A DNA stretch of 58,920 bases, counting the filler, from Diploschistes diacapsis (taxonomy: Eukaryota): assembly GCA_023645945.1 (NCBI GenBank). It is 5 parts of 5 records of this genome, joined end to end, with 100 filler letters (N's around TTAATTAATTAA, not from the genome) between each part and the next. Parts side by side here need not be neighbours in the genome. Positions count along the whole stretch, not along the records: positions 35,432 to 47,127 come from JALAIB010000809.1; 4 more parts are not named here. One strand, 5' to 3'. How positions within the stretch are numbered: the first letter of the stretch is position 1; each line of letters starts with the position of its first letter. Under the pieces are notes generated by a model. That model saw nothing but the letters and a program-made list of their open reading frames with translations, was not told the DNA's origin and did no database searches. This document shows positions 21,587 to 48,684 of the stretch, in pieces. The position numbers and the translations under genes are program-made.

Positions 21587-23527
21587 GTTGGACGATGCTG
21601 CAGCGAGCGTGACTATCCCGGTGAAGTAGAGGCCCTCAGGGGTGAGGTGAGCTGCACAGCGTGGCCGTCCTTCTGCATGGGGCGGAATTGGTGATAGCGA
21701 CAGTAGCGGAAGAGCAAGGTCCGACGGGCACAAACGAGTTGGATTAACACTCCAAATCTCACCCTACAGGCCCAGCAATTCTAGCATTGTGAATCTCAGG
21801 TGAAGATTGAAAGTAAATACAAGTCCGGAGGATGATAGGGAGGTACAGAGGCAGCTTGTGTAGAGAAAGTAAACTGTTCAGAGGGAGCACCCTGGCCGCA
21901 GTAGTTTGCCGACGTGTTGGTTGGACATAGAGAGAGGATGGCCCTGGGGAAACAGAGGACATGAACACAACAGAAGTGAATTGCGCCAGAAGGAGTTTCG
22001 TAAGGATTGGTTCCAAAATTCCACCGGGGCAATCCTCCGTGATAAGAGCCCAGTGCCACTTCTGCCCACGTTCTTTATCACGAAACACACATGTCTGGCA
22101 GAAACTAAAGGCGCGCGAGAAGCTGGGGAGGCAGCGGAAGGGCCGGGAGATGGCGCAACCAATTACAAAGCAGCAATATCTAACTATAGAGAGACGTGTG
22201 GCTGGGCGATGGGCTCGCGGCGTCTAGGTACCCGGTCCGTAGAGGAAATCTTGGACCTGCACCTGCGTTGATATCGTCGTTATCATGTACACGGCCAATT
22301 CAATGACGTTAGGAAAACTCTAAGTATCTATTGGCTCGCCTATTACCAATGCTTGTGCAGTTGAAATTATTTGAACCCCATTTGTGAGCTGAAATAATTA
22401 ATATAAAATCGAAATAAAAGCTTAATATTTTATAAGGAAAGGTAATACGTCTTATATTATTATTTAATAATAAAAATTTCTTACTTCCTTTAACACATGA
22501 TTCATCAAAATTTATAACCGGTTTCGTAAACTAGTTTTTAATTAACTTAGAAAAATTTAAAAATTTCGATCATTATACATGACAAAGATTTCTTCTTATA
22601 ATCTAAAAACTATTTCAATTTAATATAAATTACTTGGCTTTTCTTATCGAATTTAATAGCTTACAAATCAGGTTTAAATTAATTTCTCATTGTACAAGCA
22701 AGGCCTATTGCGCATCATGGGAACTATCATGTTGTTGCTTCACGGACAGAGATGAAGACGGCCCGTTGAAACTTGCACGGCACATGGCTATGATGAAGTC
22801 ACCACTTTATACCTGGCGACTAAGGCCGAGTATCACAACTATCATTTAGGAGAAATTACGAGATAACGACGGACGAGGGGAGTTTGGAGGTTGAATCTGG
22901 ATGTGGAATCGAAGGTGCCAATTTGTTATTGCCCAAAAGCAAGGTAAATTCAGGTCGCAATTTCTTCGGTACCATGGCACCTGGTGGTATTGTATTGAAG
23001 TGTGCTCCAAGAATACCGGTGCACAGTCCAAAACACATGAAAAGTTTTGCACATTTCATAAAGCTTCCACCTCATCAATTAAAAAATTTAAAATAAGAGA
23101 CCTTTAAATTAAACCACGTGCAAAATACTCAAACCTTGTTGAGATTTGATTGTGCGATATTAAGAAATTTTGAAGTATTCGCGGCAGCGGTACGTTCTCG
23201 ATTTTCACATCGTGATCATTCTCACCACAGCTTTACTAGTTTCTAAAAAAAAAAAATAAGAAGTCTGAATAAGTATGTATCTCTTTGTAAGCGGCTTCCT
23301 AAAAAAACTTATTTAATATTTAAGAAAGCCTTATTGGTGGTATGACAGCTTCATGAAATGGGCGCATTTTGGTCTAATTCGGGGGAGGGCTCCCCTACTT
23401 TTAACCCAGTACCGTAGTCTTGTCTTCTGCACATCGCCAAGAGTGCAAGCACAAAACGCATCAGATCAGAAACCCGCTCCTCAAATATTCACGCACCTAA
23501 TCATCGAACCGCCCCTCATCCATCTCC

Positions 23528-23627
23528 NNNNNNNNNNNNNNNNNNNNNNNNNNNNNNNNNNNNNNNNNNNNTTAATTAATTAANNNNNNNNNNNNNNNNN
23601 NNNNNNNNNNNNNNNNNNNNNNNNNNN
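23528..23627. other. Artificial contig spacer
   Basis: N44-TTAATTAATTAA-N44. Confidence 0.98.
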
Positions 23628-24220
23628 ACTTTATTCGATTTATTAGACCCTTTTATTTTTATTTTACAGCCTTTTTTTAACCACGAATTAATTCGATTTG
23701 GATTTATTTTTATTATATAGTTTTTTATTAAATACGACCGAACTATGAAAGATTAATAAAGAATTTAATTAAACGTTGCGAGCCGTTCTAAAACTAATTA
23801 GCCCGATTCGACGTTATTCGAGTCGAATAACCCGTATGTTTAAATCGACGTATATTAAGTTTATAACGCTTCGTAAAGAAAACCGAAAGTAAAAAACGTT
23901 TCTTAATAATCGTAAGAAACGTAAATTAAGTAAACGAATCGAATTAGAAGGTCGTTTTATATTTAATATAAACGAAGTTCTTAAGATAATAATTCGGGTT
24001 AAATCGAGTCGGATAATTTCGAAACGACCTATAACGCGTAAAAAACGTCGTCGCGTTTTTAAAATCGAAAAGGATGAAAAGAAAGAAGATAGATTCAATT
24101 TAGATCGATTAAATTCTGATTACGACGAATAGGTTATATTTAAAAACCGTAGAATGTTAGCGGTAATGATTTAAGGTGGCCGGAATCTAGGGGTGGCCGG
24201 AATCCCCGTGAAACACGTTA
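23628..24220 (+). mobile_element. RIP-degraded 3' end of a Fot1/pogo DNA transposon with right TIR
   Basis: Very AT-rich, TpA-rich, CpA/TpG-poor, CpG retained. Decayed frame SPIRRYSSRITRMFKST...LRKENRK*...RKKRKLSKRIELEGRFIFNINEVL resembles pogo transposase C-termini. Ends GGTGGCCGGAATC x2 then GTGAAACACGT|TA (24208-24220). Confidence 0.75.
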
Positions 24221-24660
24221 GAGCTAATATCTTCGCGTCATACTTTATTTTAATTAAAACCGCCTCGTCCTTTATATCCTCGGATTAACTCCGTAATTCT
24301 ATTTTATTTTATTAAAGTTTATTAACCTCTATCATAATATTTCTTAATTATAAAATTTACGAAGTCATCGCCGGGTCCGTTAAGATTAATTATAGAAGAA
24401 AACGTTATCTTAAGTTTATTATATGTTATTAAATTTAATTTAATTTTCTTATAAAAAAATTAAGGAATTAAAAATTTATTAATCTTGCTATTTATAGCAT
24501 TAAAACGTTTTAATTAAAGTTAATAGACTATAAAGATAGAGAAAGAATGAACTAATTAATTTTATTAAGAATAAATAGATTAGAACGATACATCTATAAA
24601 GAAAAAACTGATCAAAAAGAATGTTTTATGAATATGAAAAGCAATTAATGAGCGAGTCGC
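24221..24660. repeat. Further AT-rich, RIP-like repeat remnant
   Basis: Composition only. Confidence 0.5.
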
Positions 24661-24999
24661 TTATATTCTAGTAGGGAAGGATGTGGTTTTATCACGGAAT
24701 TAAGCCCTAAGTCCGAAAAGACTTGGCAGAATACCTTTTATTTGTAAATCTGTAGCTAGACAATTTAAAACACACCATGCAATCGAATCACACACTAATC
24801 CGTCACCAATCACGTGCCTTACCCAGAGTCGATTTCAACAGCGACCAGAACTTCTTGTTCGCATAGAAAGGTATTAATACCGCCTCCCATGTTACTGGTA
24901 GACATCTCTTGTTCAATTAGTGGTCATCAGCTATAACTACCATATGTATCTGAAACCAGGCCCTATACCACTTCCTCTAGTTATCTGACTGTTTTTTTA

Positions 25000-26500
25000 T
25001 CATCTTCGGAAGAGACTGCCATACTTTCGGCCTGTGCCATCTTTGTGTTCTCGCGCATGAGGACCAAAACTTGGACACATACTCAATAGTGCAACGAGTA
25101 AACCAAAAGCTGCCGAGATCGACACCTTTTGACGACAGTACGATGCCTGACTTGTGGGAACTATGTTCGTTCCGAGCAACGGACCACATTGACCTATAGT
25201 TGCAAGAAAAGTATACGCTCTGGCACGCTTGGACTCGGTAGCACTGATATTAGCTACCCACGCCAGCGTCAACGCCACGCAGCAAAAGACTTGGACAGAC
25301 CAGAACATTGCAGAGTAGCGCACTGGACCTGACTGGACCGTAGCCGAAAGTATGAACCCAATTTGCAGCAACGAGAGACACAGCAGCACAAAAAGGTCCG
25401 CGTGCTCCCATGCAATCTGACAGTTAGCAAAATTATAACGATCATAAAGAAGCAGAGAAGATAAGGAGGTGCTCTTAGACCATTTAATTGGATCGAAGTG
25501 AAAGTCCCAATATGTGAGATAATCGGGGGTAGGAAAAGCGGTAGCTAGCGAGACGAATGTATGGTCAAGCACTCGACTCAGCGGCTTTATAATCCGAGTT
25601 AGCATACATTTAGTCTTTGAAAGCATCCAAAAACTCTTTGAATCGAATGCCGAGTTTCTTGGCATCGTCTATCCTCTGCTGACGGCTTAAATAGTACCTA
25701 ACTGTGGCTTTCTCGCTCTCTGTCAAGAATCTGGCAGATGAGAGTGAGTCCGGGAGGAAGAACCAAACGAAGATAGCCTCAAAACAAAGTTATGAACAGA
25801 ATCTGCCAAGGTGCGACGCGGCCATTGATCTGGGAAATGCCATATGCAAGGTCAATGCCGTATGCATTCGCCATTGCCGCTCCGGAAATAAATACACCCT
25901 AACGAAATCCGATCTTCGTACGAGGATAAAAGTAGGACAAGTACAATGGCACCGCAGGCCCATGTGCCGATTCTGCAATCCCAAGGAAGATCCGACAAAC
26001 TGGCAGACCTTCGTATGTGGTCACGGAAGCTTGGATAGTCGCTACAAAGCCCCAAAGGAAGACAACAACAGCGGCGTAAATAATGTGGTGGGAACTTGCT
26101 TCCATCCGATGAGCGTCCACTGCAAGAGCATGTCTGATATTTGTCAGAATGGGATTTCATAGTTAACAGGAGATTTATGGCGCTGGAAATCAAACCATCT
26201 CTTTGCGCGCCAAGCTCTACGGGTATCGGTGCATATATGCGATATAGAAAGCCCTTCCAAGCCAACTATACCAGGAATTTGAGACGTCTATGTCTTGTTC
26301 AAGCCCAGCAAGCCTCGCATTCCCTAGATTGGGTCTGTCCAAAATCGAGTAGAGGACGAAGACGAGTGGCAGCAGGCGATAGTCGAGCTTGCGAATCACT
26401 GCGGCCTTCTCTTCCGCCGTGAAATTGGGCTGTGACGAGTCTGTAAGCTCGACATCTTCAAGATGAGATGGGTCTTGGGCTTCTTTTTTTCAGAGTCCGT
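25000..26500 (-). pseudogene. MFS transporter pseudogene (Dal5/Tna1 anion:cation symporter family)
   Basis: Collinear pieces IRKLDYRLLP..LDR.NLGNARLAGLEQD, CRIFLGIAES..GPAVPLYLSYFYPR, W..LF, LAWVAN..TESKRA...IGQCG, with an in-frame stop (GFR*G), frameshifts and deletions. Confidence 0.8.
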
Positions 26501-37298: not shown

Positions 37299-39456
37299 AT
37301 GACCAAACTCCCACATTCCCTACGCGCTTTCAATTCTCTTCTCCGCAGGCAGGTACCTGATCGGCAAGCCTTTTCAACATCGACACCCCTCCGGAAACTT
37401 CTCCTTCAAATCAAACCCAGCATGGCCACGGTAACAACAAAAGCTGGCCAAACGGTCGATAGAGCGAGGATCGAATCCGCGCTGCGGAGAAGGCTGTTCT
37501 ACACACCTTCATACGAGATCTACGGCGGTTACGCTGGGCTGTTCGACTACGGCCCGCCCGGCTGCTCGTTACAGGCCAACGTCGTTGAGCAATGGCGCAG
37601 GCACTTCGTGCTGGAAGAGGACATGCTGGAGGTAGATAGTCCTGCAGTGACGCCTCACGATATCTTAAAGACGAGTGGGCACGTCGACAAGTTCGCGGAC
37701 TGGATGTGCAAGGACCCAAAGAGTGGTGAAATATTCCGAGCAGATCATTTAGTCAAAGAGGTTCTCGAGGCACGGTTGAAGGGCGACAAAGAAGCGCGGG
37801 GCCAGAAAGTCGTGGTGGACGAAGAAAAAGAGGCTAAGAAAAGGAAGAAAAAGAGCCAGGAAACAAAGGCAGTCAAGCTTGATGATGCGGTGGTTCAAGA
37901 ATATGAGGAGACGCTGGCAAAGATTGACAACTACGACGGCCCAGAGCTCGGCGCGCTCATAACAAAACATGGCATCAAGAACCCAGGTACCGGCGGCGAT
38001 GTCCTGCCTCCGGTGGCATTTAATCTCATGTTCGAAACGATGATCGGGCCGAGTGGGCAATTGAAAGGCTACATGCGACCAGAAACAGCGCAAGGTCAGT
38101 TTGTCAACTTTGCGAAGCTGCTCGAGTTCAATCAACAGGGCATGCCGTTCGCCTCGGCATCCGTCGGTAAATCCTTCCGAAACGAAATCTCCCCCCGGTC
38201 TGGTCTGCTAAGAGTTCGAGAATTTCTCATGGCTGAGATCGAGCATTATGTCGACCCTGAAGGTGGCAAGAAACACCCGCGCTTCAACGAGGTGAAGCAC
38301 ATTGAGCTGGACTTTCTTGATAGACAAGTGCAGCTCGAAGGGAGGACAGAAATCAGGAGAATGACCATCGGTGAGGCTACATCGACGAAGCTTGTCGACA
38401 ATGAAACCCTAGGATACTTTCTGGCTCGGATCCAGCTATTCCTTGTGAAAATCGGTATTGACCCCACAAAAATCCGCTTCCGCCAGCACATGGCAAACGA
38501 AATGGCACATTACGCCGCCGACTGTTGGGATGCAGAATTACTAAACAGTTACGGTTGGATAGAGTGCGTAGGATGTGCCGACAGGAGTGCTTACGACTTG
38601 ACGGTGCACGCTAAGAAGACTGGTGCGCCGTTGCATGTCAGAGCGAGGCGAGAGGAGCCGTTGAGGGTGGAAGAGTGGCAGGCCGAGCTGGACAAGAAGA
38701 AGGTTGGGCCCAAATTCAAAAAGGATGCAAAGGCAATCGAAACGGCAGTGGAAAACCTCTCGCAGGAATTTCGGGAGAAACTGTCACTGGAACTAAGCAG
38801 CAAGGGCAGGATCGAGCTTGAAGTTCCCGGGATGAGTGACAAGGTTGAGCTGGAGAAGGACCTCATTGCGATCGAGAGGCGCACGAGGGTGGAGCACACG
38901 CGAGAATACACGCCGAATGTCATTGAGCCGTCGTTTGGTATCGGGCGGATCCTCTACACGCTGATGGAACACGTGTATTGGTACAGGGAGGGTGCAGAAG
39001 AGAGAGCGGTGAGGGTTTTGAGCGGCAGGCAAACTCTATATGCTCAAGTTGCTAATTCTGCCTTGCTTGCAGGTGCTGTCCTTCCCACCAACCGTTGCGC
39101 CTACCAAGGTGCTCCTCGTGCCGCTGTCGGGGAACCCGGCTTTCTCGCCACTACTGCAGAAGCTAGGAGCCAGGCTGCGGCAGCTGGGCGTGTCGAGCCG
39201 GGTTGACGACTCGAGCGTGAGCATCGGCAGGAGGTATGCAAGGAATGACGAGCTAGGCACGCCGTTCGGGGTGACGGTGGACTTCCAGTCGGTCAAGGAT
39301 GACAGCGTCACGCTGAGGGACAGGGACAGCACGAAGCAGGTCAGGTCGGACCTCGAGACGATATGTCAAGCGATCAAGAGCATGGTTGAGGACGTCAAGA
39401 CGTGGAAAGAGGTGCAGAGTGAGTTGCCGGAGTTTACGCAGCAAGAGGTTGATTGA
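37299..39456 (+). CDS. GRS1: Glycyl-tRNA synthetase (homodimeric class II), 2 exons (intron 39009-39072); upstream ATG adds a mitochondrial-type presequence
   Basis: IYGG..GLFDYGPPG, SGHVDKFADWM, MRPETAQGQF, SFRNEISPRSGLLRVREF, IEPSFGIGR, anticodon domain IGRRYARNDELGTPF. Confidence 0.97.
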
Positions 39457-40238
39457 GGGGGGGGGTGAAGGGGCAAAGTGGGATTGCAGGATTTACAACG
39501 CACAGAAGTTTATCTTCTAAAGTTGGTTGAAAAGCGGGGCTAGGCTACTACTCAAGACATGTATACTACATACCTTGGGCCGTTCAGAAGGTGGAAGTTT
39601 GTATGATGATTGTTTCCAAGTATGCAGGGTCGAGGGCAATAAGATATTCGTCGCTTGGGCTCGTCGCTGCACTGCTGCACTGCACTGCGGCTAGGAAAGA
39701 TGCATACGCAGTCCCAGTCAGTCCAATCCCGAGGATATGTAGCCGAGCTGCTGTTTGCATGACTTCCCGGGGAGGGGGGAGGGCTTACTTGGGTACCATA
39801 CAATCACTGGCAATGCAAATGCATATGCATATGCATATGCACAAAAAAAGAAGTACCTGGGTAAATCGGAGCAGAAAGAAGAGGGAGGGTTTTTCAGTTG
39901 TAGTTTGAATGAGGAGGGGATGGATACTGGGATTGATTTCCAGGGCAATGGATTGGGCTGTACGGTGGAGGAGGCGGGCCGGTATGATATGGATACACAT
40001 ACACAGTATTGAGTATTATTAGAACGGTATGGGTGCGGTATGGTATGGTATGGTATCCATATGGTATATATAGTATTGGGCATGGATGATGATGATGGAA
40101 ATGGATGGGTAGTTGGATACGGTACCTGAGGGAGGAGGACCCTCTGTGTCGGAAATTTGGAACACATCCGACGGGCACGTTTTCCCTTTCCCCTGATGGC
40201 TGATCCATTTATGGCTGTGGGTGTACGTTACCTACCTA

Positions 40239-40270
40239 TGTTACGTTACGTTACGTTACGTTACGTTACG
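40239..40270. repeat. (GTTAC)6 microsatellite in a low-complexity intergenic region
   Basis: Read directly. Confidence 0.85.
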
Positions 40271-41400
40271 TACATGTTTAGTACTTAGTACGTAAGTTAC
40301 CTTTCCGAGCAAGCACATTAGGTTAACAGAGTAGTAGTTATGTAACTACAACTATACTCGACATACCTTTTGGTAAACGGTTGGTAACCCCTCCATGTTC
40401 ACTTCCTGGAAAAGTGTCAGCCACGTGGGTGGGCTGTCTGTCCCGACACTCAGGTTAAAGCTGTTGAACGGTAAGCGTAACGGTAAGCATAACGGTAACC
40501 GTTATACAACTACAAATACACTACCGTACCAGGTACTTTTACCTTGAACTTTACCAACCCAGAAACCAAAGGGATCTCCTCTTTTGCTCGAGCATAGCCA
40601 GGGTCAGGAATAGCCTGCAGCAAAAGAGAGAGACCCGGCATGAGGGGGCATTAATTGATCGACAAGAGTTGACTCTTATCGTGGGGCATTATCAACTTAT
40701 CTTCATCTTCGTTACAACTTGGATAACAATCCATAATTCATAACAATACATAACAGTTCATAACAATTCATAACAATTCATAATAACTCGCGTCTCGCTC
40801 TGCTTATACCCGAAGACGCTGAGCCACAATAGAAAAGCACAATTTAAGTTGCAGCAGACACAAGCGATAGCCCGTGCCGTGGGCAAGGCGCTCTGTAAAT
40901 GGAACAGGAACTCTTTACGCAATAAAGTTAGTTGGTTCCCCCATAATAAACTCTTTCAAATTTGAAGACTAGACTGGGATAGAGAGCTAGACAGCCGAGA
41001 CAGCAGCACCAGGAATGATGAGCACCTCACTCTACTTCACTTCTCTACCGTTAATTACTCCAATACTCATTAGCAGTCCCCGTGGTGGCGGTAGGGTAGA
41101 GTAACGGGTAAACCAAAAATGTCCAAGGAATGTCTCAAAACTGATCGTCACTCGTTGTGAGGTTGGCTCCCGTAGTCGGTTCCCCACTACGGATGCAGGC
41201 AGCGGGCATAATTCCAGGACAACCTGTCAGAGCCCTTGTCTTCCACCTGCAACTTGGCCCAACATCGTGGTACGTGGTAGTAGCCCTTCTTTGATCAGCA
41301 AGAGTTAGTTCCCAGACGAACTTGAACAATCAATAGGAAAGAGATGGGCTGGTGCTAGTCTAGCGTTTTGCTTTTTGACCCGGTCCGCTGTACTTCGCCA

Positions 41401-41445
41401 CTCCTCCTCCTCCTCCTCCTCCTCCTCCTCCTCTTCCTCCTCCTC
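41401..41445. repeat. (CTC)n microsatellite
   Basis: Read directly. Confidence 0.9.
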
Positions 41446-41999
41446 AATTGTTATTCCGCTCCCCCTTGTTTGGGCGTCTAGTATCTGGTCTTGGTCGAGC
41501 CTACTGCAAGATGATTCGGACAACTGTCAGTACTTACTATAGTCCCACACAACTTGATTCGCTTTCGCTGTTGCGTTTCCATACCTTTTCCATTCCGCGG
41601 AACCAGTGTTGTTTTCTGTACTAAATGGGTAAGGGAAGAGTGAGAAAGTTTCACGTGGCCAGCTCCTGCATCCACGATGTTTACTTTGATACACTACCTC
41701 TCACGTGCACTTACAGTGTTTTATGCTCCGAACAGTAAAGCATGTCGCTTGCAGTAGCTCCATGCTTTGGACCTGTCAATTTCCCCCTGAACACTAACCT
41801 GAGCCAAACTCCTTGACCACTCAACAAACTATATCTTTAAAAGCTTCCACACCCGATTCGACCCTTTCGATGCTTGTCACGCCGTACACACGAGTCCTCC
41901 CTTACCGCAAGAAACCGTTCTGGAGAAGGAAGATTCCCCACATTACACATCTTAAGGCTTCCTTGTCCTGAAGGAAACCGGTGGCAGGTCTATTGAGAA

Positions 42000-43059
42000 A
42001 TGGGAAATGGAGATTCCATGGGAATTGACATTGACAGCGATGAGGACGCCGTTGCATCACGCCTTGACGAAATGCAGATTGAGACCCAGGGCTTTGCCCA
42101 TGCGCTGTCCGGCTCCTCACAGTCACAGTAGGTTGGGAAAAGAAAGCAGGGAAGCGTTGAGCTAACCGTTTAGGAATTCCACCAAGTCGATATCGGGCAG
42201 CTTCATCGAACCGATCGTCGAGAACGACCGAACCTATATCAACGATACCTATTATCTTCCCAACGACGACGCCGAGGCCACGAGTGACTCAATGTGCCAT
42301 CAGGTCTATATTGCGGCTCTATCGGGCCGACTGACCTTCCATCGCATGAAGCCGGACGTGTCTCGAATGCTCGACGTCGGTGCGAATCCCGGTGACTGGG
42401 CCATCGCCGTGGCCGAACGGTATCCGCAGGCCGAGGTGGTGGCTACTGACCTGGGCCCCTGCGAACTCGCTGATCTACCTCCGAACCTTGTCTTCCAGGT
42501 CGACGACGCTCGCGAAGAGTGGACATACGCCGAACCTTTCGACTACATTCATATCCGCGGCATGGCAGGCGCCTTTTCGGACTGGAAGTTCATATACGAT
42601 CAGGCTTGCAAGCATCTCGGAGAAGATGGGATCCTCGAGGTAGTCGATCGAGGTCCAGTACATCACAACACATCCGTACCAGATTCTTACCTCGACATCT
42701 ACAACGCCGCCTGCCAGCAGGCGGCTGAGCTCTCGGGAGTCAGTCTCGGGGCCGAGCATCTGCGGAGAGAAGTGATCGAGGAAGTGGGCTTGAGAATATT
42801 TCGCTCCGCAACCGTCGAGATACCCGTGGGTCAGTGGCATCCCGACAGACGACAAAAATCAGCTGGTCGAATGGCGCTTGTGGGCTCTCTGGAACGGCTG
42901 GAAGCGCAGAGCATGAGGCTGCTTACCAAGTATCTCGACTGGTCGGCCGAGGATGTCAAGGATCTGTGCGAGAAAGTCACGGAAGAGATCCTGCTCCAAG
43001 ACACGAAGCCGTCGATGACCTGCACCTTTGTCATTGCGAGAAAGTTTCCAGAGTCATGA
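42000..43059 (+). CDS. SAM-dependent methyltransferase, LaeA-like/Methyltransf_23; 2 exons (intron 42128-42173)
   Basis: YYLPNDDAE, MLDVGANPGDWAI, VVATDL, FQVDDA, FDYIHIRG, PVGQW; GTAGGT...GCTAAC...TAG intron keeps the frame. Confidence 0.88.
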
Positions 43060-43067
43060 CGACGATA

Positions 43068-43104
<37 letters not shown>

Positions 43105-43107
43105 TGA
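43057..43107. repeat. (GAC)n microsatellite starting at the methyltransferase stop codon
   Basis: Read directly. Confidence 0.9.
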
Positions 43108-43585
43108 TCTTCACAGCCGAGCCTGCAACCATGAATCTAATGGTTTTACGAGCCACGATACAGAATGTGGGACTTGCGATGCGGAGAAGGCTTCAGCGGG
43201 CAGCGAAGCGCTTCCAGAACGTAGAGAGAGGCAGGCTATGCTGGTATTCTATACCGTCTGTAACAATACGAACCTTTACTGCAGTTTATACCAAATGACC
43301 ACGCCCTTGAAGGTCGTTATATTTTTATATACATACTCTGGGTCTATATTGTGCTTCTACGTTATTATTCCCCGTCCACAGCTAATCCTGGAATTGCCGC
43401 TCCGCCAATAGGAGCTACGGCCGGCTTTTCCCATGCCGCGGTGTGAGGACAAGTTTCACCAATGACCTCACAGCCAACAACCACCTGTGTCAACTTTAAC
43501 TTGCTAACTTAGAACTGTACATTACCTACCTACCCTGCAGTAATTCCTATTCTTCTTCTTTTCTTTAAGCTCTCATTCAACTACA

Positions 43586-46500
43586 ATGGCTCCCCTTCCG
43601 CCCTCCGCTAGCATCACCCTCAGCTATCCTATCTACTCTTCAGACTTTGACCCCAACAATCATAGCTACCTGTTCGTTGGAGGTGGTGGAGGTGCAGGCC
43701 ATAGCGGTGTCAAGAACAAGATTGTAAGCACTCGTATGCATATTTGCCGAGCAGCCTAACCTCCATAAAGTCTCTGATCGATACCTCAAAGAAAACCGAA
43801 ATCAAAGAAGTTGTCGACATCGATCTTTCCAGCAGCGAGGACTCGGTGTCGTCGCTGGCCGTCGCGCGGTCGGACGAAGGTTCGGCCGTGGTTCTTGCAG
43901 GCATTAACTCGTCAATAGACGAGCAGAAGCAGGGGAAGAATGACCACCTACGATCTTTTGTCCTGAAATATCCACGACGGAAGAGTACCGAAAAGGAAAA
44001 GATCCCGGAGGGCCAGACCGTGGAGGTCCCGGATGACCTCAACGGAGCCATGACGGAGGCTCTGTGCAAGTCTCCACTCTTTACGCCCGATACACGACCC
44101 AACCCAGAGACGTATCAGCGGGTTTTGCGACTCTCTCGGCCGAACAGGGAGCGCAAAAGCCGGATCGGCGCCGTTACCACTGGCCTTGCGCCAATCGGAG
44201 AGGTTACGATCTTCGATGCCTCAAAATCAAAGATCGACCCGAGCGATGTGCGACAGCGTATCAATCTGGGCAAGGAAGAGGCAGGAGACGTTGACATCGT
44301 CGAGGCCAACGATCACGAGTACTACGTGGCCTATTGTACCGACTATGAGATCTACGTGTGCAAGGTGCCGTTCGATAGGTCGGAGCCAACCCAATCACCG
44401 TATCTACTCTACGAGACGCCGTTCCCCGACGCCTTTGCAAACGAGAAGAAAAGGCCGCAGTTTCGATCTTTGAGGTTTCTTACGCCGAAGTTGCTTCTGG
44501 TCCTGGTGAACCTGCCAAACAAGAGCGGCGTCGAGCTGTGCCTGCTGGAACTCTCCGAAATACCACGCGCAGGGACGGTCTCTCTCCGCAAAGCTCTCCA
44601 CAAAGGCATCAAGTCGGCAACTTCCCTTGCAATCTCAGTCCTTCGCGGGCCAACACCCTCTTCAGACGTCCAGCATGTCATCGCCGTCGCGGGTCAGGAT
44701 ATCTCCATCACAATCTTTACGATCGACCACGGCCCTCGTTCCCGCTCCGGCCTGGCTTTCAAGCAATACGCCTTGTTCCGCAACCCGCACCCCATCCAAA
44801 TGACCTCTCTAGCCTTTTCCCACTTCAGCCCACCCGCGGATCCTGCAAGAGCACAACCTCAGTACCTCAAGCTTGCCTCCACAAGCATGTCCTCCACCAT
44901 TGTCGTGCACACCTTCCCTCTGATACCTTGCCCCTCGGCAGTTGCCAAGCGGAGCCCCGACGGTCCCCCGACCCGCTATGTCCTTTCACAGCAGTCCAGC
45001 GTCCGTAACGAGGGGGGCTCGCTGGGTCTCGCCGCTCTCGTGGGAATCATCATGGTCGCCCTCGGTGCATTCTTTCTGCAAGCCGTCATCGAAATTCGCG
45101 GCGGCAGCCCCGAAATCATCGGCGCCAAGACATGGCTTAGCCAGCCACTGCGGGATAAGATTGCGCTGCCGTGGATGTTTGCGGACCAGCAGGCCCCTGT
45201 CCTGACGGACTCGCTGCCGCCCATCGAGTCACCGCTACGGAAGGCATACAAGGTTGTCGAGGACAGCGTGCCGACGCACACCGACCAGCTTAAAGGCACA
45301 GTCTACGACGCCGCAGAGGGGCTCAAGGGATCTGCGTATGATGCTACCGAGTATGCCAAAGACAAAGCCGACGATGCCAAGGAACGGGCGTATGATGCGA
45401 CTGATGATCTGAGAGATAGAGCCCATGACGCGAAGGAGGGCGTGAAAGACGGAGCATACACCGCCAGAGACAGAGCCTACGATGCAAAGGAGGCTGTCAA
45501 ACGCAGAGCCTATGACGCGAAAGAGGGTGCCAAAGACAGAGCTTACGACGCCAAGGAGGGTGTTAAGAACAGAGCCTATGGCGCAAAAGATGGTGTCAAA
45601 GATCGAGCCCACAACGTCAGGGACAAAGCTTACGATGCGAAGGAAGCGGTCAAAGGCAGAGCATACAACGCCAAGGACAGAGCCTATGATGCGGCTGGGA
45701 ACATTAGAGATAAAGCCTACAACGCTAAGGAATGGGCCTACGAAGCTACTGAAGATGTTAAAGACAAAGCCTATGACAAGGGCGAGGACCTGGTGGACAG
45801 AGCCCACGATGCCAGAGAGTCTGCCTATGAAACGACCGAAGATATCAAGGATGAAGCGTATGCCGCCGCCGAGGATGTCAAAGACAGAGGCTATGACGCC
45901 AAAGACTGGATCTACGAAACCACGGAAGACCTCCGGGATGGAGCGTATGACGCTGCTGAGGGTGCCAGAGACAAAATCTACGATGCCAAAGATTGGGTTT
46001 ACGAATCAGCAGAAGATATTCGGGATGGAGCATACGACACGGCCGAGAATGCCAGAGACAAAACCTACGATGCCAAAGATTGGGTTTACGAAACAGCAGA
46101 AGATATCCGGGATGGAGCGTATGATAAGGCCGAGGATCTCAGAGACTCGGCCTACCATACCGCGGAGAGGGTCAGAGGTAGGATTCCCACAGACACGGAA
46201 GAGCTCAGAGAAACTGGCCGTCAGGCAGCAAGAAAGGTAAAGCAAACAGCCAAGCACGGCCACCGTCGTATCCGCGATCTGCTGTTCCACCGCCTGAACG
46301 TTCTTGGAAACGGCCACGACGAGGAAGATGACCCAGACATCGACATGATAGACTACGAAGAACCATCCTACGTCTATGGCCGCAGAAATACTGAGTATAA
46401 CGTCCCCACGATCGTCATTCGCGACCGCACTCACGAGACCGACGACGGAGCCCTGACGCTTACTACCGAAGTGCACAGGTCGATGGGAGACATGTACGCC

Positions 46501-46698
46501 GCCAGCCGTGGGCGAGGCGTGAGGGCTGGCAAGTTGAGGAGGTGGGAAGATCTGAAGCCGCACGAGAAGAGGAGCTGGATGCGCAGACTCGAAGATGCGG
46601 GCGTTTGGACGCTAAGGGAGGGCGAGAGCGTGTTGAAGGGTGTGTTTTTCTCCGAGGTTGCTGGCGCTGTGGCCGGTGCGGTTAGGGCGGGTTTGTAG
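43586..46698 (+). CDS. SEC12: Sec12-like Sar1 GEF (N-terminal beta-propeller, one TM) with a large luminal LEA-like repeat insert; 2 exons (intron 43724-43770)
   Basis: LSYPIYSSDF...FVGGGGGAGHSGVKNKI (K-loop-like GGGGxxxxGxxN), NDHLRSF, HPIQMTSLAFS, TM LGLAALVGIIMVALGAFFLQAVI, C-terminal WEDL...W.RRLEDAG.W...GESVLKGVFFSE. Confidence 0.82.
45301..46183 (+). repeat. Coding tandem repeats: 11-aa and 7-aa units (AYDAKEGVKDR / AYDAKDW), with an 87-nt higher-order repeat
   Basis: GATGGAGC.TA.GA recurs at 45937, 46024 and 46111 (87-nt spacing). Confidence 0.92.
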
Positions 46699-46724
46699 AT
46701 TGCAAGATAAAAAGGATATCGGCG

Positions 46725-46810
46725 GTTGGCGGTGCATTGTTCTTCTTCGGTTGTCGGCTGTTGGCGGCGCATTTGTCCTTCTTCGGTTGTCGGCTGTTGG
46801 CGGTGCATTG
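46725..46810. repeat. Short imperfect tandem duplication (TTCTTCGGTTGTCGGCTGTTGGCGG) in the Sec12 3' region
   Basis: Read directly. Confidence 0.75.
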
Positions 46811-47127: not shown

Positions 47128-47227
47128 NNNNNNNNNNNNNNNNNNNNNNNNNNNNNNNNNNNNNNNNNNNNTTAATTAATTAANNNNNNNNNNNNNNNNN
47201 NNNNNNNNNNNNNNNNNNNNNNNNNNN
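47128..47227. other. Artificial contig spacer
   Basis: N44-TTAATTAATTAA-N44. Confidence 0.98.
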
Positions 47228-48684
47228 GAAGGGGCGGCGGGCATGGGTTAGGCGGGTTTTGGGCTGGAGGGTGGTTTTGTTGGAAAGACGGACTCGGTAG
47301 GAGAGGAGGGTTCCTGGTTGCAAGCTGCAGTCGCGGCCGAGGACGGCTTCGTCGGCGATGATGACCGAGTTGATGTTACAGTTGTCGCCAATAACCACGT
47401 CATCCCAGATGTAAGAATCGCGGATGTTCACGTTCTTGCCGATCTGGCAACGGCGGCCGATGACGCTGTTGGTGATCGTGCTGCCGTCGCCGACGCTCGT
47501 GTCCTTGCCGAGGATACTGCGCGCTTTGACAGTGCTACCACGCGCAAGGACCACGCCGGCTTCAAGGTAGATTTTGTTTTTGAGCAGGCGGTACTTGTGG
47601 CCGCGCATTAGGTTGCAGTCTGGAGTGAAGGGATACGTCCAGCGGGAGATTATGTCTTTTGTGACGGCATCGTAAGCGCGTAAGCTTGAGACGCGAGCGG
47701 CATAGCCCTCATCGACAATGTGGGTGTGTATGGTTTTGCCGTTCAGCTCATAGTCTTGAAGCACTCCGCGGAGGAAAGAAGACCGGATCGACTTGTAGTC
47801 GAAGTTGTCGGTCCAAAGGCCCAGGACATCGATGGTGCAGATATCAATGCTGCAGTCTACCAGATCGCCTCTGACGTCGATCTCTGGCTTTGCAAGTAGA
47901 TCCGAGTCCAAGTGAAAGCGTCTGTCGCGACGATCGTTCTTGGAGATTTCTTCGTAGTGCAGACATCGGTCGTGTTGCGGATCAATAAAGAAGAATGGCT
48001 TTCGCCCCCGTGGCTTGCTTCGATGGTCCCTACCAGATTCGCGAAGTACCATGGTCATGATAGCGTTGGGATCCTTTCCCCTCCTGGCCCGATGTTGGGC
48101 AAGCGCCGAATCCAGGTTGATATTGGAGATCAAGTCGCCTATGACGAGTACAAAATCCCCAGTGATTACATCGCGCTTGTCCAGATCCCTCATTGCATCT
48201 CCGACAGACGTCGCTGGGCACCGTAGGATGGTCAATCCGGCAAACGGGGAGGTGGAAGACATCCATGTTGAGTTTCTACATGGATCAGACAAAGATTAAA
48301 GCGGAACGAAGGGACTTTAGCCTACTTGATGTAATCCTCGACTTGTTCCTCGTGAGCTCCGACATAGAGATAGATGTCCCTAATGCCCGCATTGGCTAGA
48401 AACTCAAGGGTGTACTCTATAAGCACAACGTTGGCTACAGGGAGAAGACACTGCTGGTATTAGCAGGTAATCCCCAGCCTGAGGTATTTCTTGTGCTTAC
48501 TCTTGGCTTCTCCTGAGCAAATGGGGAGAACCCTCTATCATATGAGTCCGTGAGCACCTTCGAAAACTTTAGTAAACAAGGCAAGCGAGACCGAGTATAG
48601 GCTCACTACTGCCTGAAGAGTCGCTTCTCGCTGCTCTTCCTGGCCTTTTTGTTTCGATGGCCCTTTGGCTGCCTTGGGCGGCAT
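47228..48684 (-). CDS. GCD6: Translation initiation factor eIF2B epsilon subunit, 3'-truncated at contig end; at least 4 exons
   Basis: LQAV|VLTDSY..F.P...EKPR|CLLPVAN..LIEYTLEFLA, SVGDAMRDLD, DNFDY, YAARV...YDAV.KDII.RWTYP, left-handed beta-helix hexapeptide repeats. Confidence 0.95.

What the first reader, a model, noticed from the sequence alone, without database searches (positions are those of the whole stretch)
45301..46183. Sec12-like ER GEF carrying ~290 aa of LEA-like amphipathic repeats in its luminal domain
Seen: between the TM helix and the conserved-looking C-terminal WEDL...GVFFSE block lie about 30 units of 11 aa (AYDAKEGVKDR) and 7 aa (AYDAKDW/R). They shift from K/R-balanced to acidic and end in an 87-nt (11+7+11 aa) higher-order repeat with high DNA identity, implying recent expansion. 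The frame is intact. Established: group 3 LEA proteins are built from 11-mer A/K/E/D/T-rich amphipathic repeats and protect membranes and proteins on drying; Sec12 is a type II ER protein with a variable luminal tail. Inference: a membrane-tethered LEA-like protectant or spacer at ER exit sites, potentially a desiccation adaptation. I do not know of this architecture being described. This is the best candidate for something new in the window.
Basis: partly seen in the sequence, partly recalled or inferred. Interest (0 to 1): 0.72.

Follow-up and report, generated by a model that had tools for sequence, protein, structure and literature searches.

The report
Lichen Sec12 with expanded luminal helix
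In a dryland lichen fungus, the protein that starts export from the endoplasmic reticulum has copied one of its own short helices about thirty times into a long stretch that resembles drought-protection proteins; other lichen fungi have independently done something similar, but a role in drying is unproven.

Summary
The single-copy Sec12 gene (43586-46698, one intron, 1021 aa) carries 30 in-frame units at 45301-46182: 21 of 11 aa and 9 of 7 aa. They lie between the TM helix and a Pezizomycotina-wide C-terminal block. Exon 2 matches an NCBI record labelled Diploschistes diacapsis (975 of 975 aa), and two other runs cover most of the repeat, so misassembly is unlikely. The repeat is a clean 305-aa insertion absent from the closest relatives (Thelotrema, Gomphillus clusters). 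It appears to have been amplified in place from a native 1-2-unit luminal helix rather than fused from a LEA gene. Units keep helical phase (3.63 residues per turn) and listed SNPs suggest purifying selection. The same slot has expanded independently, with different amphipathic units, in at least five other lineages. Most lichen orthologues, including Pleopsidium, stay short. Best reading: a length-variable luminal amphipathic helix that works like the long luminal regions of Sed4 and Pichia Sec12 (membrane-surface contact, clustering). Resemblance to group 3 LEA is real at motif level but probably convergent; a drying role is possible (about 0.2) and untested. I found no description in the searched literature. 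New variant of a known kind.

The parts
43586..43723 (+). Sec12 exon 1 (46 aa), first propeller strands
   Evidence: same N-terminus in P0275 / KAI4147688.1
43682..43717 (+). K-loop, matches GGGGxxxxG-phi-x-N, the diagnostic Sec12 GEF motif
   Evidence: motif from PMC8703528
43724..43770 (+). 47-nt GT-AG intron with CTAAC branch point
   Evidence: agrees with the NCBI gene model; no RNA evidence
43771..44982 (+). cytosolic WD40-like beta-propeller (Sar1 GEF domain)
   Evidence: AF2 pLDDT mostly above 90; Foldseek top hits 4h5i, 4h5j, 5tf2
45013..45093 (+). single transmembrane helix
   Evidence: Kyte-Doolittle windows up to 2.63; helix
45091..45267 (+). juxtamembrane luminal segment, conserved in its first 30 aa
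   Evidence: invariant columns
45268..46182 (+). 305-aa lineage-specific insertion in the variable luminal slot
   Evidence: absent from 5 of 5 closest relatives aligned
45301..46182 (+). array of 30 amphipathic units (21 x 11 aa, 9 x 7 aa; 294 aa; 3.63 residues per turn; about 44 nm if one straight helix)
   Evidence: turn count and length computed by hand
45463..45616 (+). basic 33-nt (11-aa) tandem block, closest to the group 3 LEA motif
   Evidence: by-eye comparison with the motif in PMC7363813
45838..46146 (+). acidic 87-nt (11+7+11 aa) higher-order repeat, 3.6 copies
46183..46290 (+). retained ancestral amphipathic module ending in the conserved LRxLL motif
   Evidence: aligns with P0002-P0004, P0020, P0148; R835, L837, L838 nearly invariant
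46402..46698 (+). conserved C-terminal luminal domain with Gly-rich, moderately hydrophobic tail; no Pfam family, no HDEL; stop codon

Best explanation
This is the fungus's one Sec12 (Sar1 GEF). Lichen-fungal Sec12 proteins have a length-variable amphipathic helix in the ER lumen, between the TM helix and a conserved C-terminal domain. In the Diploschistes lineage that native helix was duplicated and amplified in place, first as 11- and 7-residue units and later as a 29-residue higher-order unit, into a 294-aa helix that keeps its hydrophobic face in phase. Shown: Sec12 identity, coding frame, insertion boundaries, phase, amphipathicity, recurrence. Inferred: the array is loosely folded when free and lies as a long, weakly hydrophobic helix along the luminal membrane face, or packs with copies of itself. 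It would then raise the avidity of Sec12 for curved ER and ER exit sites and promote clustering, the job done by the unrelated long luminal regions of Sed4 and Pichia Sec12. Its LEA-like look comes from convergence on the common 11-mer amphipathic helix.
For: Origin in place: the best BLASTP match of the insertion in the Thelotrema-cluster orthologue P0003 ends on that protein's own slot helix (E=0.004); by eye 46132-46179 matches P0003 477-492 at 7 of 16 identical and 7 conservative positions; both ends of the insertion resemble the ancestral module. The window protein nests among 58-63-aa-slot relatives (SH-aLRT 99, quick tree). Constraint: all 30 units are 7 or 11 aa; 294 aa over 81 turns = 3.63 residues per turn (hand count). 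Listed SNPs in the insertion are 12 synonymous and 12 non-synonymous, mostly conservative; by hand pN/pS is about 0.27 against 0.09 for the propeller. Recurrence: 22 of 23 slots of 100 aa or more have hydrophobic-moment z of 2.4 or more, whatever their composition; 11/22 periodicity recurs in P0122, P0124, P0126. Precedent: long luminal regions of Sed4 and PpSec12 drive tubule and ERES localisation and self-interaction without sequence homology (PMC11959615; PMC10184828). Weak 11-mer helices gain membrane binding with length (PMC5889406). AF2 models three long helices at pLDDT about 55-72.
Against: No experiment, no RNA holder listed, no localisation. Sed4-type luminal regions are disordered, O-mannosylated and end in HDEL; this one is helix-prone, has 17 Ser+Thr in 295 aa and no HDEL (0 of 267 proteins). 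The closest relatives manage without it. The z-scores rise with length, and many long slots are related, so 23 is not 23 independent cases. SNP counts rest on 39 coding rows of the 40 shown; 34 more were not shown, and no significance test was run. In-place duplication of an already amphipathic helix would keep phase without positive function. The origin match is short and compositionally biased.
Confidence: 0.45

Rival explanations
1. Tolerated, near-neutral expansion. The slot is a permissive linker; slippage amplified an already amphipathic helix, and selection only removes frameshifts, helix breakers and aggregation-prone changes.
For: Slot length runs from about 30 to 363 aa with median 53 (112 measured); closest relatives lack the array; pN/pS about three times that of the propeller (hand calculation); luminal regions of Sec12-family proteins share no homology (PMC11959615).
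Against: Copies differ by 15-30% in DNA yet no unit has lost phase and no proline has entered; pN/pS below 1; long slots of unrelated composition are amphipathic in 22 of 23 cases.
Confidence: 0.27
2. Membrane-tethered group 3 LEA-like protectant. The array is unfolded when wet, folds on drying and shields the luminal leaflet or Sec12 itself at ER exit sites, allowing fast restart of secretion on rewetting.
For: By eye 45517-45549 fits the midge group 3 LEA motif AKDXTKEKAXE (PMC7363813) at 4 identical, 4 same-charge and 1 small-residue positions of 9. The three nearest ESM Atlas clusters carry LEA_4 (score 0.85, a lead only). The named species is a gypsum biocrust lichen (listings of PMC7441164, PMC5377308), whereas the Thelotrema and Gomphillus clusters lack the array (their humid habitats are recalled). 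PvLEA1 and PvLEA3 are TM-LEA chimeras, PvLEA3 in ER or Golgi.
Against: LEA_4 18.1 bits against cut-off 51.1. One lineage gives one contrast. Most lichen orthologues are short, for example Pleopsidium flavum 33 aa (its xeric rock habitat is recalled). Other expansions are Ser/Ala-rich or Pro-punctuated, not LEA-like. A. nidulans Sec12 is too scarce to see by GFP, while LEA shielding is thought to need abundance (recalled). The acidic, Tyr/Trp-rich second half departs from the motif.
Confidence: 0.2
3. Luminal ruler. The in-phase helix forms a straight rod or coiled coil (11+7+11 = 29 residues in 8 turns), and the hydrophobic C-terminal tail touches the opposite membrane or a partner, setting luminal width or spacing at exit sites.
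For: 3.63 residues per turn; about 44 nm if unbroken; conserved C-terminal domain with a tail of median best hydropathy 1.44.
Against: The core positions are mostly Ala and Tyr, weak for a coiled coil; a sixfold length difference among close relatives would imply very different lumens; AF2 breaks the helix twice and confidence is moderate.
Confidence: 0.06
4. Artefact: misassembled or spliced-out repeat.
For: No RNA data. X2 contigs break at 45559-45586 with raised depth there, and X2 shows single-base deletions at 44931, 45012 and 46641; the one at 45012 is at full depth and would shift the frame before the TM helix.
Against: Two runs other than the possible source cover most of the array without gaps; no splice signals inside; open frame over 882 nt; the X2 deletions lie in or beside homopolymer runs, and similar depth peaks occur outside the repeat.
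Confidence: 0.02

Closest known systems
Pezizomycotina Sec12 (A. nidulans AN11127; PREB/Sec12 family)
   Same: K-loop, beta-propeller, one TM helix, luminal C-terminus, single copy (PMC8703528).
   Different: Luminal part is 539 aa against medians of 207 (114 of 127 close homologues measurable) and 169.5 (108 of 140 distant representatives); the longest measured.
S. cerevisiae Sed4, C. glabrata Sed4, Pichia pastoris Sec12 (long luminal regions)
   Same: Sec12-family protein with a very long, lineage-specific luminal region (Sed4 696 aa; PMC11959615).
   Different: Those are disordered and end in HDEL or NDEL, and Sed4 is an O-mannosylated paralogue without GEF activity. This is a regular amphipathic repeat, poor in Ser/Thr, with no HDEL, followed by a conserved folded domain, in the only Sec12 found in the genome.
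Group 3 LEA proteins (Pfam LEA_4), including the midge TM-LEA chimeras PvLEA1 and PvLEA3
   Same: Ala/Lys/Asp/Glu-rich 11-mer amphipathic repeats; the basic half fits the motif; a membrane-tethered ER/Golgi precedent exists (PMC7363813).
   Different: Below the Pfam cut-off; mixes 7-mers; Tyr/Trp-rich; apparently derived from a Sec12 helix; embedded in a housekeeping GEF rather than a stress-induced protein.
11-mer amphipathic helices of perilipins, apolipoproteins and alpha-synuclein
   Same: Long, weakly hydrophobic repeat helix; sub-threshold Apolipoprotein hits here and in P0122, P0124.
   Different: No homology claimed; luminal and TM-tethered rather than soluble; period averages 3.63 rather than 3.67.

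Membership tests
Sec12/PREB Sar1 GEF | K-loop motif GGGGxxxxG-phi-x-N near the N-terminus | tested here: met
   exon 1 translation; motif from PMC8703528
Sec12/PREB Sar1 GEF | WD40-like beta-propeller related to yeast Sec12 | tested here: met
   Foldseek ranks 1-5 are 4h5i, 4h5j, 5tf2 (E 7e-12 to 8e-8); family profile hits 4h5i and 6x90
Sec12/PREB Sar1 GEF | single TM helix after the propeller | tested here: met
   one run of windows above 1.6
Sec12/PREB Sar1 GEF | nucleotide exchange on Sar1 and ER localisation | not testable with these tools
   shown for A. nidulans AN11127 (PMC8703528); inferred here
Group 3 LEA (LEA_4) | tandem 11-mer with LEA pattern of apolar, basic and acidic positions | tested here: met
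   by-eye match of 45517-45549 to the motif in PMC7363813; holds for the basic half, less for the acidic half
Group 3 LEA (LEA_4) | Pfam LEA_4 score above curated cut-off | tested here: not met
   18.1 bits against 51.1 on the isolated repeat; no LEA_4 row for the whole protein. YtxH passes on the isolated repeat (46.1 against 37.5) but not on the whole protein (34.3)
Group 3 LEA (LEA_4) | common descent from a LEA gene | tested here: inconclusive
   evidence favours in-place origin; no closer LEA donor matched in the genome (only an unrelated repeat protein at E=2e-10); the LEA_4 genome search was uninformative because controls did not ring
Group 3 LEA (LEA_4) | disordered when hydrated, helical on drying, protective, stress-induced | not testable with these tools
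   AF2 gives helices at moderate confidence; no RNA holder listed
Sed4/PpSec12-type long-lumen Sec12 | luminal region of several hundred residues without homology to others | tested here: met
   539 aa
Sed4/PpSec12-type long-lumen Sec12 | C-terminal HDEL-type retention signal | tested here: not met
   0 of 267 proteins, the window's included, end in [HKRN]DEL
Sed4/PpSec12-type long-lumen Sec12 | intrinsically disordered, O-mannosylated luminal region | tested here: inconclusive
   17 Ser+Thr in 295 aa argues against dense O-mannosylation; disorder not predicted directly; AF2 helical
Sed4/PpSec12-type long-lumen Sec12 | lumen-dependent tubule/ERES localisation and self-interaction | not testable with these tools
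   needs microscopy and co-IP

The most novel reading that the evidence does not exclude
Lichen-fungal Sec12 has a tunable luminal amphipathic helix that has been lengthened independently at least six times, and in the dryland crust lichen Diploschistes it has converged on a group 3 LEA-type repeat. That would make it a LEA-like protectant evolved de novo from a housekeeping helix and tethered to the COPII-initiating enzyme, folding onto the luminal leaflet on drying and preserving ER exit sites for rapid restart of secretion.
Probability: 0.2. Interest if true: 0.75.

Novelty: new variant of a known kind. Interest (0 to 1): 0.43.

Why it matters
Long luminal regions on Sec12-family proteins are known in yeasts, but those are disordered and glycosylated. 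An in-phase amphipathic repeat is a different solution, and the natural series found here (slots of about 30 to 363 aa, with at least six independent long versions of unrelated sequence) gives ready-made constructs for an open question: how the luminal side of Sec12 senses ER shape and clusters at exit sites. It also offers a traceable case of a LEA-like 11-mer arising from an ordinary helix. LEA proteins in lichens are reported as scarcely studied and only in photobionts (PMC8073698, passages), so a fungal, ER-tethered candidate would matter if the drying assays were positive. If they are negative, it is a tolerated repeat expansion of modest interest.

Tried and rejected
No RNA holder was listed for the gene; this says nothing on expression. 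A single-sequence PDB search of the propeller without exon 1 found nothing; the family profile did. A search for shorter relatives with the luminal region gave 7 hits; the five sequences read are LEA/YtxH-like repeat proteins, not Sec12 fragments, and two were not read. No orthologue with an intermediate version of this array was found: none between 72% and 100% identity among the best 120 of 344 hits, none among 13 longer hits; both scored only 8000 candidates. The metagenome scan gave 3 loci; the two read (L004, L005) encode unrelated repeat proteins and L006 was not read. The C-terminal domain gave no Pfam family, no Atlas hit, no Foldseek match at E<=0.001 and VIA-align best Z 3.8 (rmsd 3.0, 54 aligned), mostly beta-grasp chains: inconclusive. 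A dimer prediction for that domain was not run. Earlier findings: nothing. Not computed: per-position unit composition, Fourier periodicity, and a significance test for the SNP contrast (script machine lost); the pN/pS values are hand arithmetic. The slot rule used the first LRxLL-like motif and undercounts some rows (P0028, P0006-P0008, P0013, P0119). A proper ecology test was not possible because most sequences are unnamed. Rejected: LEA gene fusion (boundaries fall inside a duplicated native module); a Sed4-like second paralogue (1 match in the genome; assembly is fragmented).
Full report
Gene and observation. The gene starts at 43586, has one 47-nt intron (43724-43770) and stops at 46698, giving 1021 aa (the 1022 printed there includes the stop). 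A Kyte-Doolittle scan finds one TM helix at about 45013-45093. Between it and the C-terminal block lie 30 units over 45301-46182, 21 of 11 aa and 9 of 7 aa; 27 come straight from the split, and I regrouped one 18-aa segment as 11+7 and completed the last 11-mer by eye. TRF reports a 33/66-nt array (71-79% matches) and an 87-nt array of 3.6 copies (80%). The main family of 10 copies has spacings of 33, 54 and 87 nt. The stretch is Ala 60, Asp 52, Lys 31, Tyr 27, Glu 27, Arg 25 of 295 aa, with no Pro and net charge -23, running acidic, basic, acidic. Counting three turns per 11-mer and two per 7-mer gives 294 residues in 81 turns, 3.63 per turn, close to a relaxed alpha-helix (pitch recalled); unbroken it would be about 44 nm.

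Is it real DNA? Four runs were laid. X1 may be the source. X3 has a contig from 44446 to 45739 and one from 45755 to 46035, X2 one from 44941 to 45559 and one from 45586 to 46626; none shows a gap inside the array, and they differ from the window by about 2%. Against: X2 breaks at 45559-45586 with doubled depth, so a copy-number difference there cannot be excluded, and X2 carries single-base deletions at 44931, 45012 and 46641. The 45012 deletion is at full depth in a run of seven G and would shift the frame; I take these as homopolymer errors but cannot show it. X4 barely covers the gene. No RNA holder was listed. The NCBI protein KAI4147688.1, labelled Diploschistes diacapsis, is in the same cluster and identical over all 975 aa of exon 2; it may come from the same DNA, so it supports the gene model and the species label, not independent assembly.

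It is Sec12. Exon 1 holds the K-loop motif that PMC8703528 calls diagnostic (part 1 of 3 and passages read). A profile of 113 homologues hits yeast Sec12 structures 4h5i and 6x90 (E about 1e-7). The AF2 model (mean pLDDT 72.9) has yeast Sec12 and human PREB as its five best Foldseek matches. One copy is found in the genome.

The repeat against orthologues. The nearest homologues, P0002 and P0003 (72%) and P0004 (61%), are 660-667 aa. P0003 clusters with Thelotrema lepadinum and P0020 with Gomphillus americanus; Thelotrema and Diploschistes share a tribe. Aligned with five such relatives, the window protein has one clean 305-aa insertion at 45268-46182. A quick IQ-TREE of 63 selected N-terminal regions (SH-aLRT only; the careful search did not finish) nests it among these short-slot proteins. 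The relatives keep a single amphipathic module at this place, and both ends of the insertion resemble it. The best BLASTP segment of the insertion in P0003 ends on that module (E=0.004), and by eye 46132-46179 matches P0003 477-492 at 7 of 16 identical and 7 conservative positions. I infer duplication of the native module and amplification of its core. The match is short and biased in composition, so this is likely rather than proven.

The slot is a recurrent expansion site. Measuring from the conserved PY/WMF motif to the first LRxLL-like motif worked for 112 of 127 proteins: median 53 aa, maximum 363 (the window's). Of the 23 slots of 100 aa or more, 22 have a helical hydrophobic moment at z of 2.4 or more against 200 shuffles; the other has 1.8. 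Units differ: Ser/Ala/Glu 11-mers in P0122 and P0124 (Lecanoromycetidae sp. Uapishka_2), Ser/Ala-rich 11/22-periodic sequence in P0126, Pro-punctuated 10-mers in the Bachmanniomyces cluster (P0089, P0290) and in Lasallia and its relatives (P0022, P0028, P0143), Lys/Glu/Ala/Gly-rich sequence in P0047, P0048, P0093, and an 18-mer in unnamed P0152. The first five groups sit on separate branches among short-slot neighbours; P0143 and P0152 were not in the tree. Many of the 23 are related, and z grows with length. Whole luminal length is 539 aa here against medians of 207 (114 of 127 measurable) and 169.5 (108 of 140 new distant representatives); 3 of 114 and 2 of 108 reach 300 aa (P0126 and P0156 fail the end rule and are left out). 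Six named non-lichen orthologues have 143-194 aa (Pseudovirgaria, Penicillium oxalicum, Chaetomium thermophilum, Thielaviopsis, Pseudogymnoascus, Cladophialophora; 10 looked up, 4 without an organism name).

Selection. Of the 40 variant rows shown (34 more hidden), 39 are coding. In 43771-44916, 11 are synonymous and 3 non-synonymous (all 14 differences of that X2 contig); in the insertion, 12 and 12. With the site counts, hand arithmetic gives pN/pS about 0.09 and 0.27; if all 9 unseen X2 differences in the two repeat contigs were non-synonymous and inside the array it would be 0.47. So the array is constrained, but less than the propeller. No significance test was run.

How LEA-like? Pfam on the isolated array: YtxH 46.1 bits (cut-off 37.5), Apolipoprotein 21.2 (90), LEA_4 18.1 (51.1). 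By eye, 45517-45549 fits the midge group 3 motif AKDXTKEKAXE (PMC7363813, passages) at all 9 defined positions, 4 identically. The ESM Atlas puts LEA_4 clusters first at 0.85 with low recognition, a lead only. The 11-mer amphipathic helix is also used by perilipins, apolipoproteins and synuclein, where weak helices gain membrane binding with length (PMC5889406, passages). The pattern therefore shows helix type, not family or drying function. PMC6559209 (passages) lists LEA3-type domains in bacteria, yeast, plant and nematode and added no usable consensus.

Ecology. D. diacapsis is a gypsum biocrust lichen (search listings and abstract starts of PMC7441164 and PMC5377308), and its named short-slot relatives are recalled as humid-habitat species. 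That is one contrast. Lichens in general tolerate drying (PMC8073698, passages), yet most lichen orthologues are short, Pleopsidium flavum at 33 aa among them.

Mechanism. In yeasts, long luminal regions of Sed4 (696 aa) and Pichia Sec12 direct tubule and exit-site localisation and self-interaction, share no homology, and can be replaced by some unrelated disordered regions (PMC11959615, parts 1 and 3 of 6; PMC10184828, passages; Soderholm 2004 seen only as cited there). I therefore rank first (0.45) a luminal amphipathic helix that contacts the membrane or itself and tunes Sec12 clustering, then tolerated expansion (0.27), LEA-like protection on drying (0.20), luminal ruler (0.06) and artefact (0.02). 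The first and third are not exclusive. All functional steps are inferred.

C-terminal domain. None of 267 proteins ends in HDEL.

Novelty. Searches for Sec12 with lumenal domain/Sed4, with A. nidulans/exit sites/luminal, with luminal domain/amphipathic/repeat/filamentous fungi (8 papers, none on this by title or abstract start) and with lichen (0 papers) showed no description of this array or of the expandable slot. Only the open library was searched, and no supplements were read; the S1 alignment of the 2019 A. nidulans Sec12 paper could show luminal variation and was not seen. Verdict: real, undescribed in what I could search, a new variant of the long-lumen Sec12 theme; interest 0.43.

Noticed in passing
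window 46402-46698: Conserved, Pfam-less C-terminal luminal domain of Pezizomycotina Sec12 (W..L......W...L..AG.W......LKG.FF) with a Gly-rich hydrophobic tail; AF2 pLDDT 75.9; only weak beta-grasp-like matches (best Z 3.8, rmsd 3.0, 54 aligned). No orthologue ends in HDEL, so it may serve retention or oligomerisation.
   Followed up: partly
window 37299-46698: Gene order glycyl-tRNA synthetase (37299-39206), SAM methyltransferase (42166-43059), Sec12 appears conserved: public models fuse these neighbours with Sec12 in Thelotrema (P0283), Gyalolechia and Flavoplaca (P0097, P0121, P0125) and Penicillium (P0127, P0306), which explains Sec12 records named 'glycine-tRNA ligase'. Probably annotation fusions.
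   Followed up: partly
L002 1-2784 (G000:C3830, minus strand): A second, unrelated protein in the same genome (open frame 1713 aa) has an acidic Ala/Asp/Glu/Thr/Lys 11-mer array followed by repeated Gly/Asp/Glu-rich units; it resembles large fungal LEA-domain proteins (recalled) and is a better stand-alone LEA candidate.
   Followed up: no
P0122, P0124, P0126, P0156, P0143, P0152, P0089: Independent amphipathic repeat expansions (11-, 10- and 18-mers) in the same Sec12 slot; P0122 and P0124 give sub-threshold Apolipoprotein hits.
   Followed up: partly
window 43058-43104: A (GAC)16 microsatellite begins at the methyltransferase stop codon, 480 nt upstream of the Sec12 start.
   Followed up: no
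window 46719-46809: 36-nt tandem repeat (2.6 copies) in the Sec12 3' region; run X2 has one copy fewer.
   Followed up: no
window 47128-47228: Scaffold gap of Ns with a short spacer; beyond it an ORF on the minus strand (47180-48295) looks like eIF2B epsilon (recalled, not tested). The window joins several contigs.
   Followed up: no
window 22001-25000: GC drops to 31-40% against about 50% elsewhere; possibly a RIP-degraded repeat.
   Followed up: no
P0279, P0281: Unrelated membrane proteins with N-terminal 11-mer units much like the array's, varying in copy number between the two; shows how readily this unit type arises.
   Followed up: no
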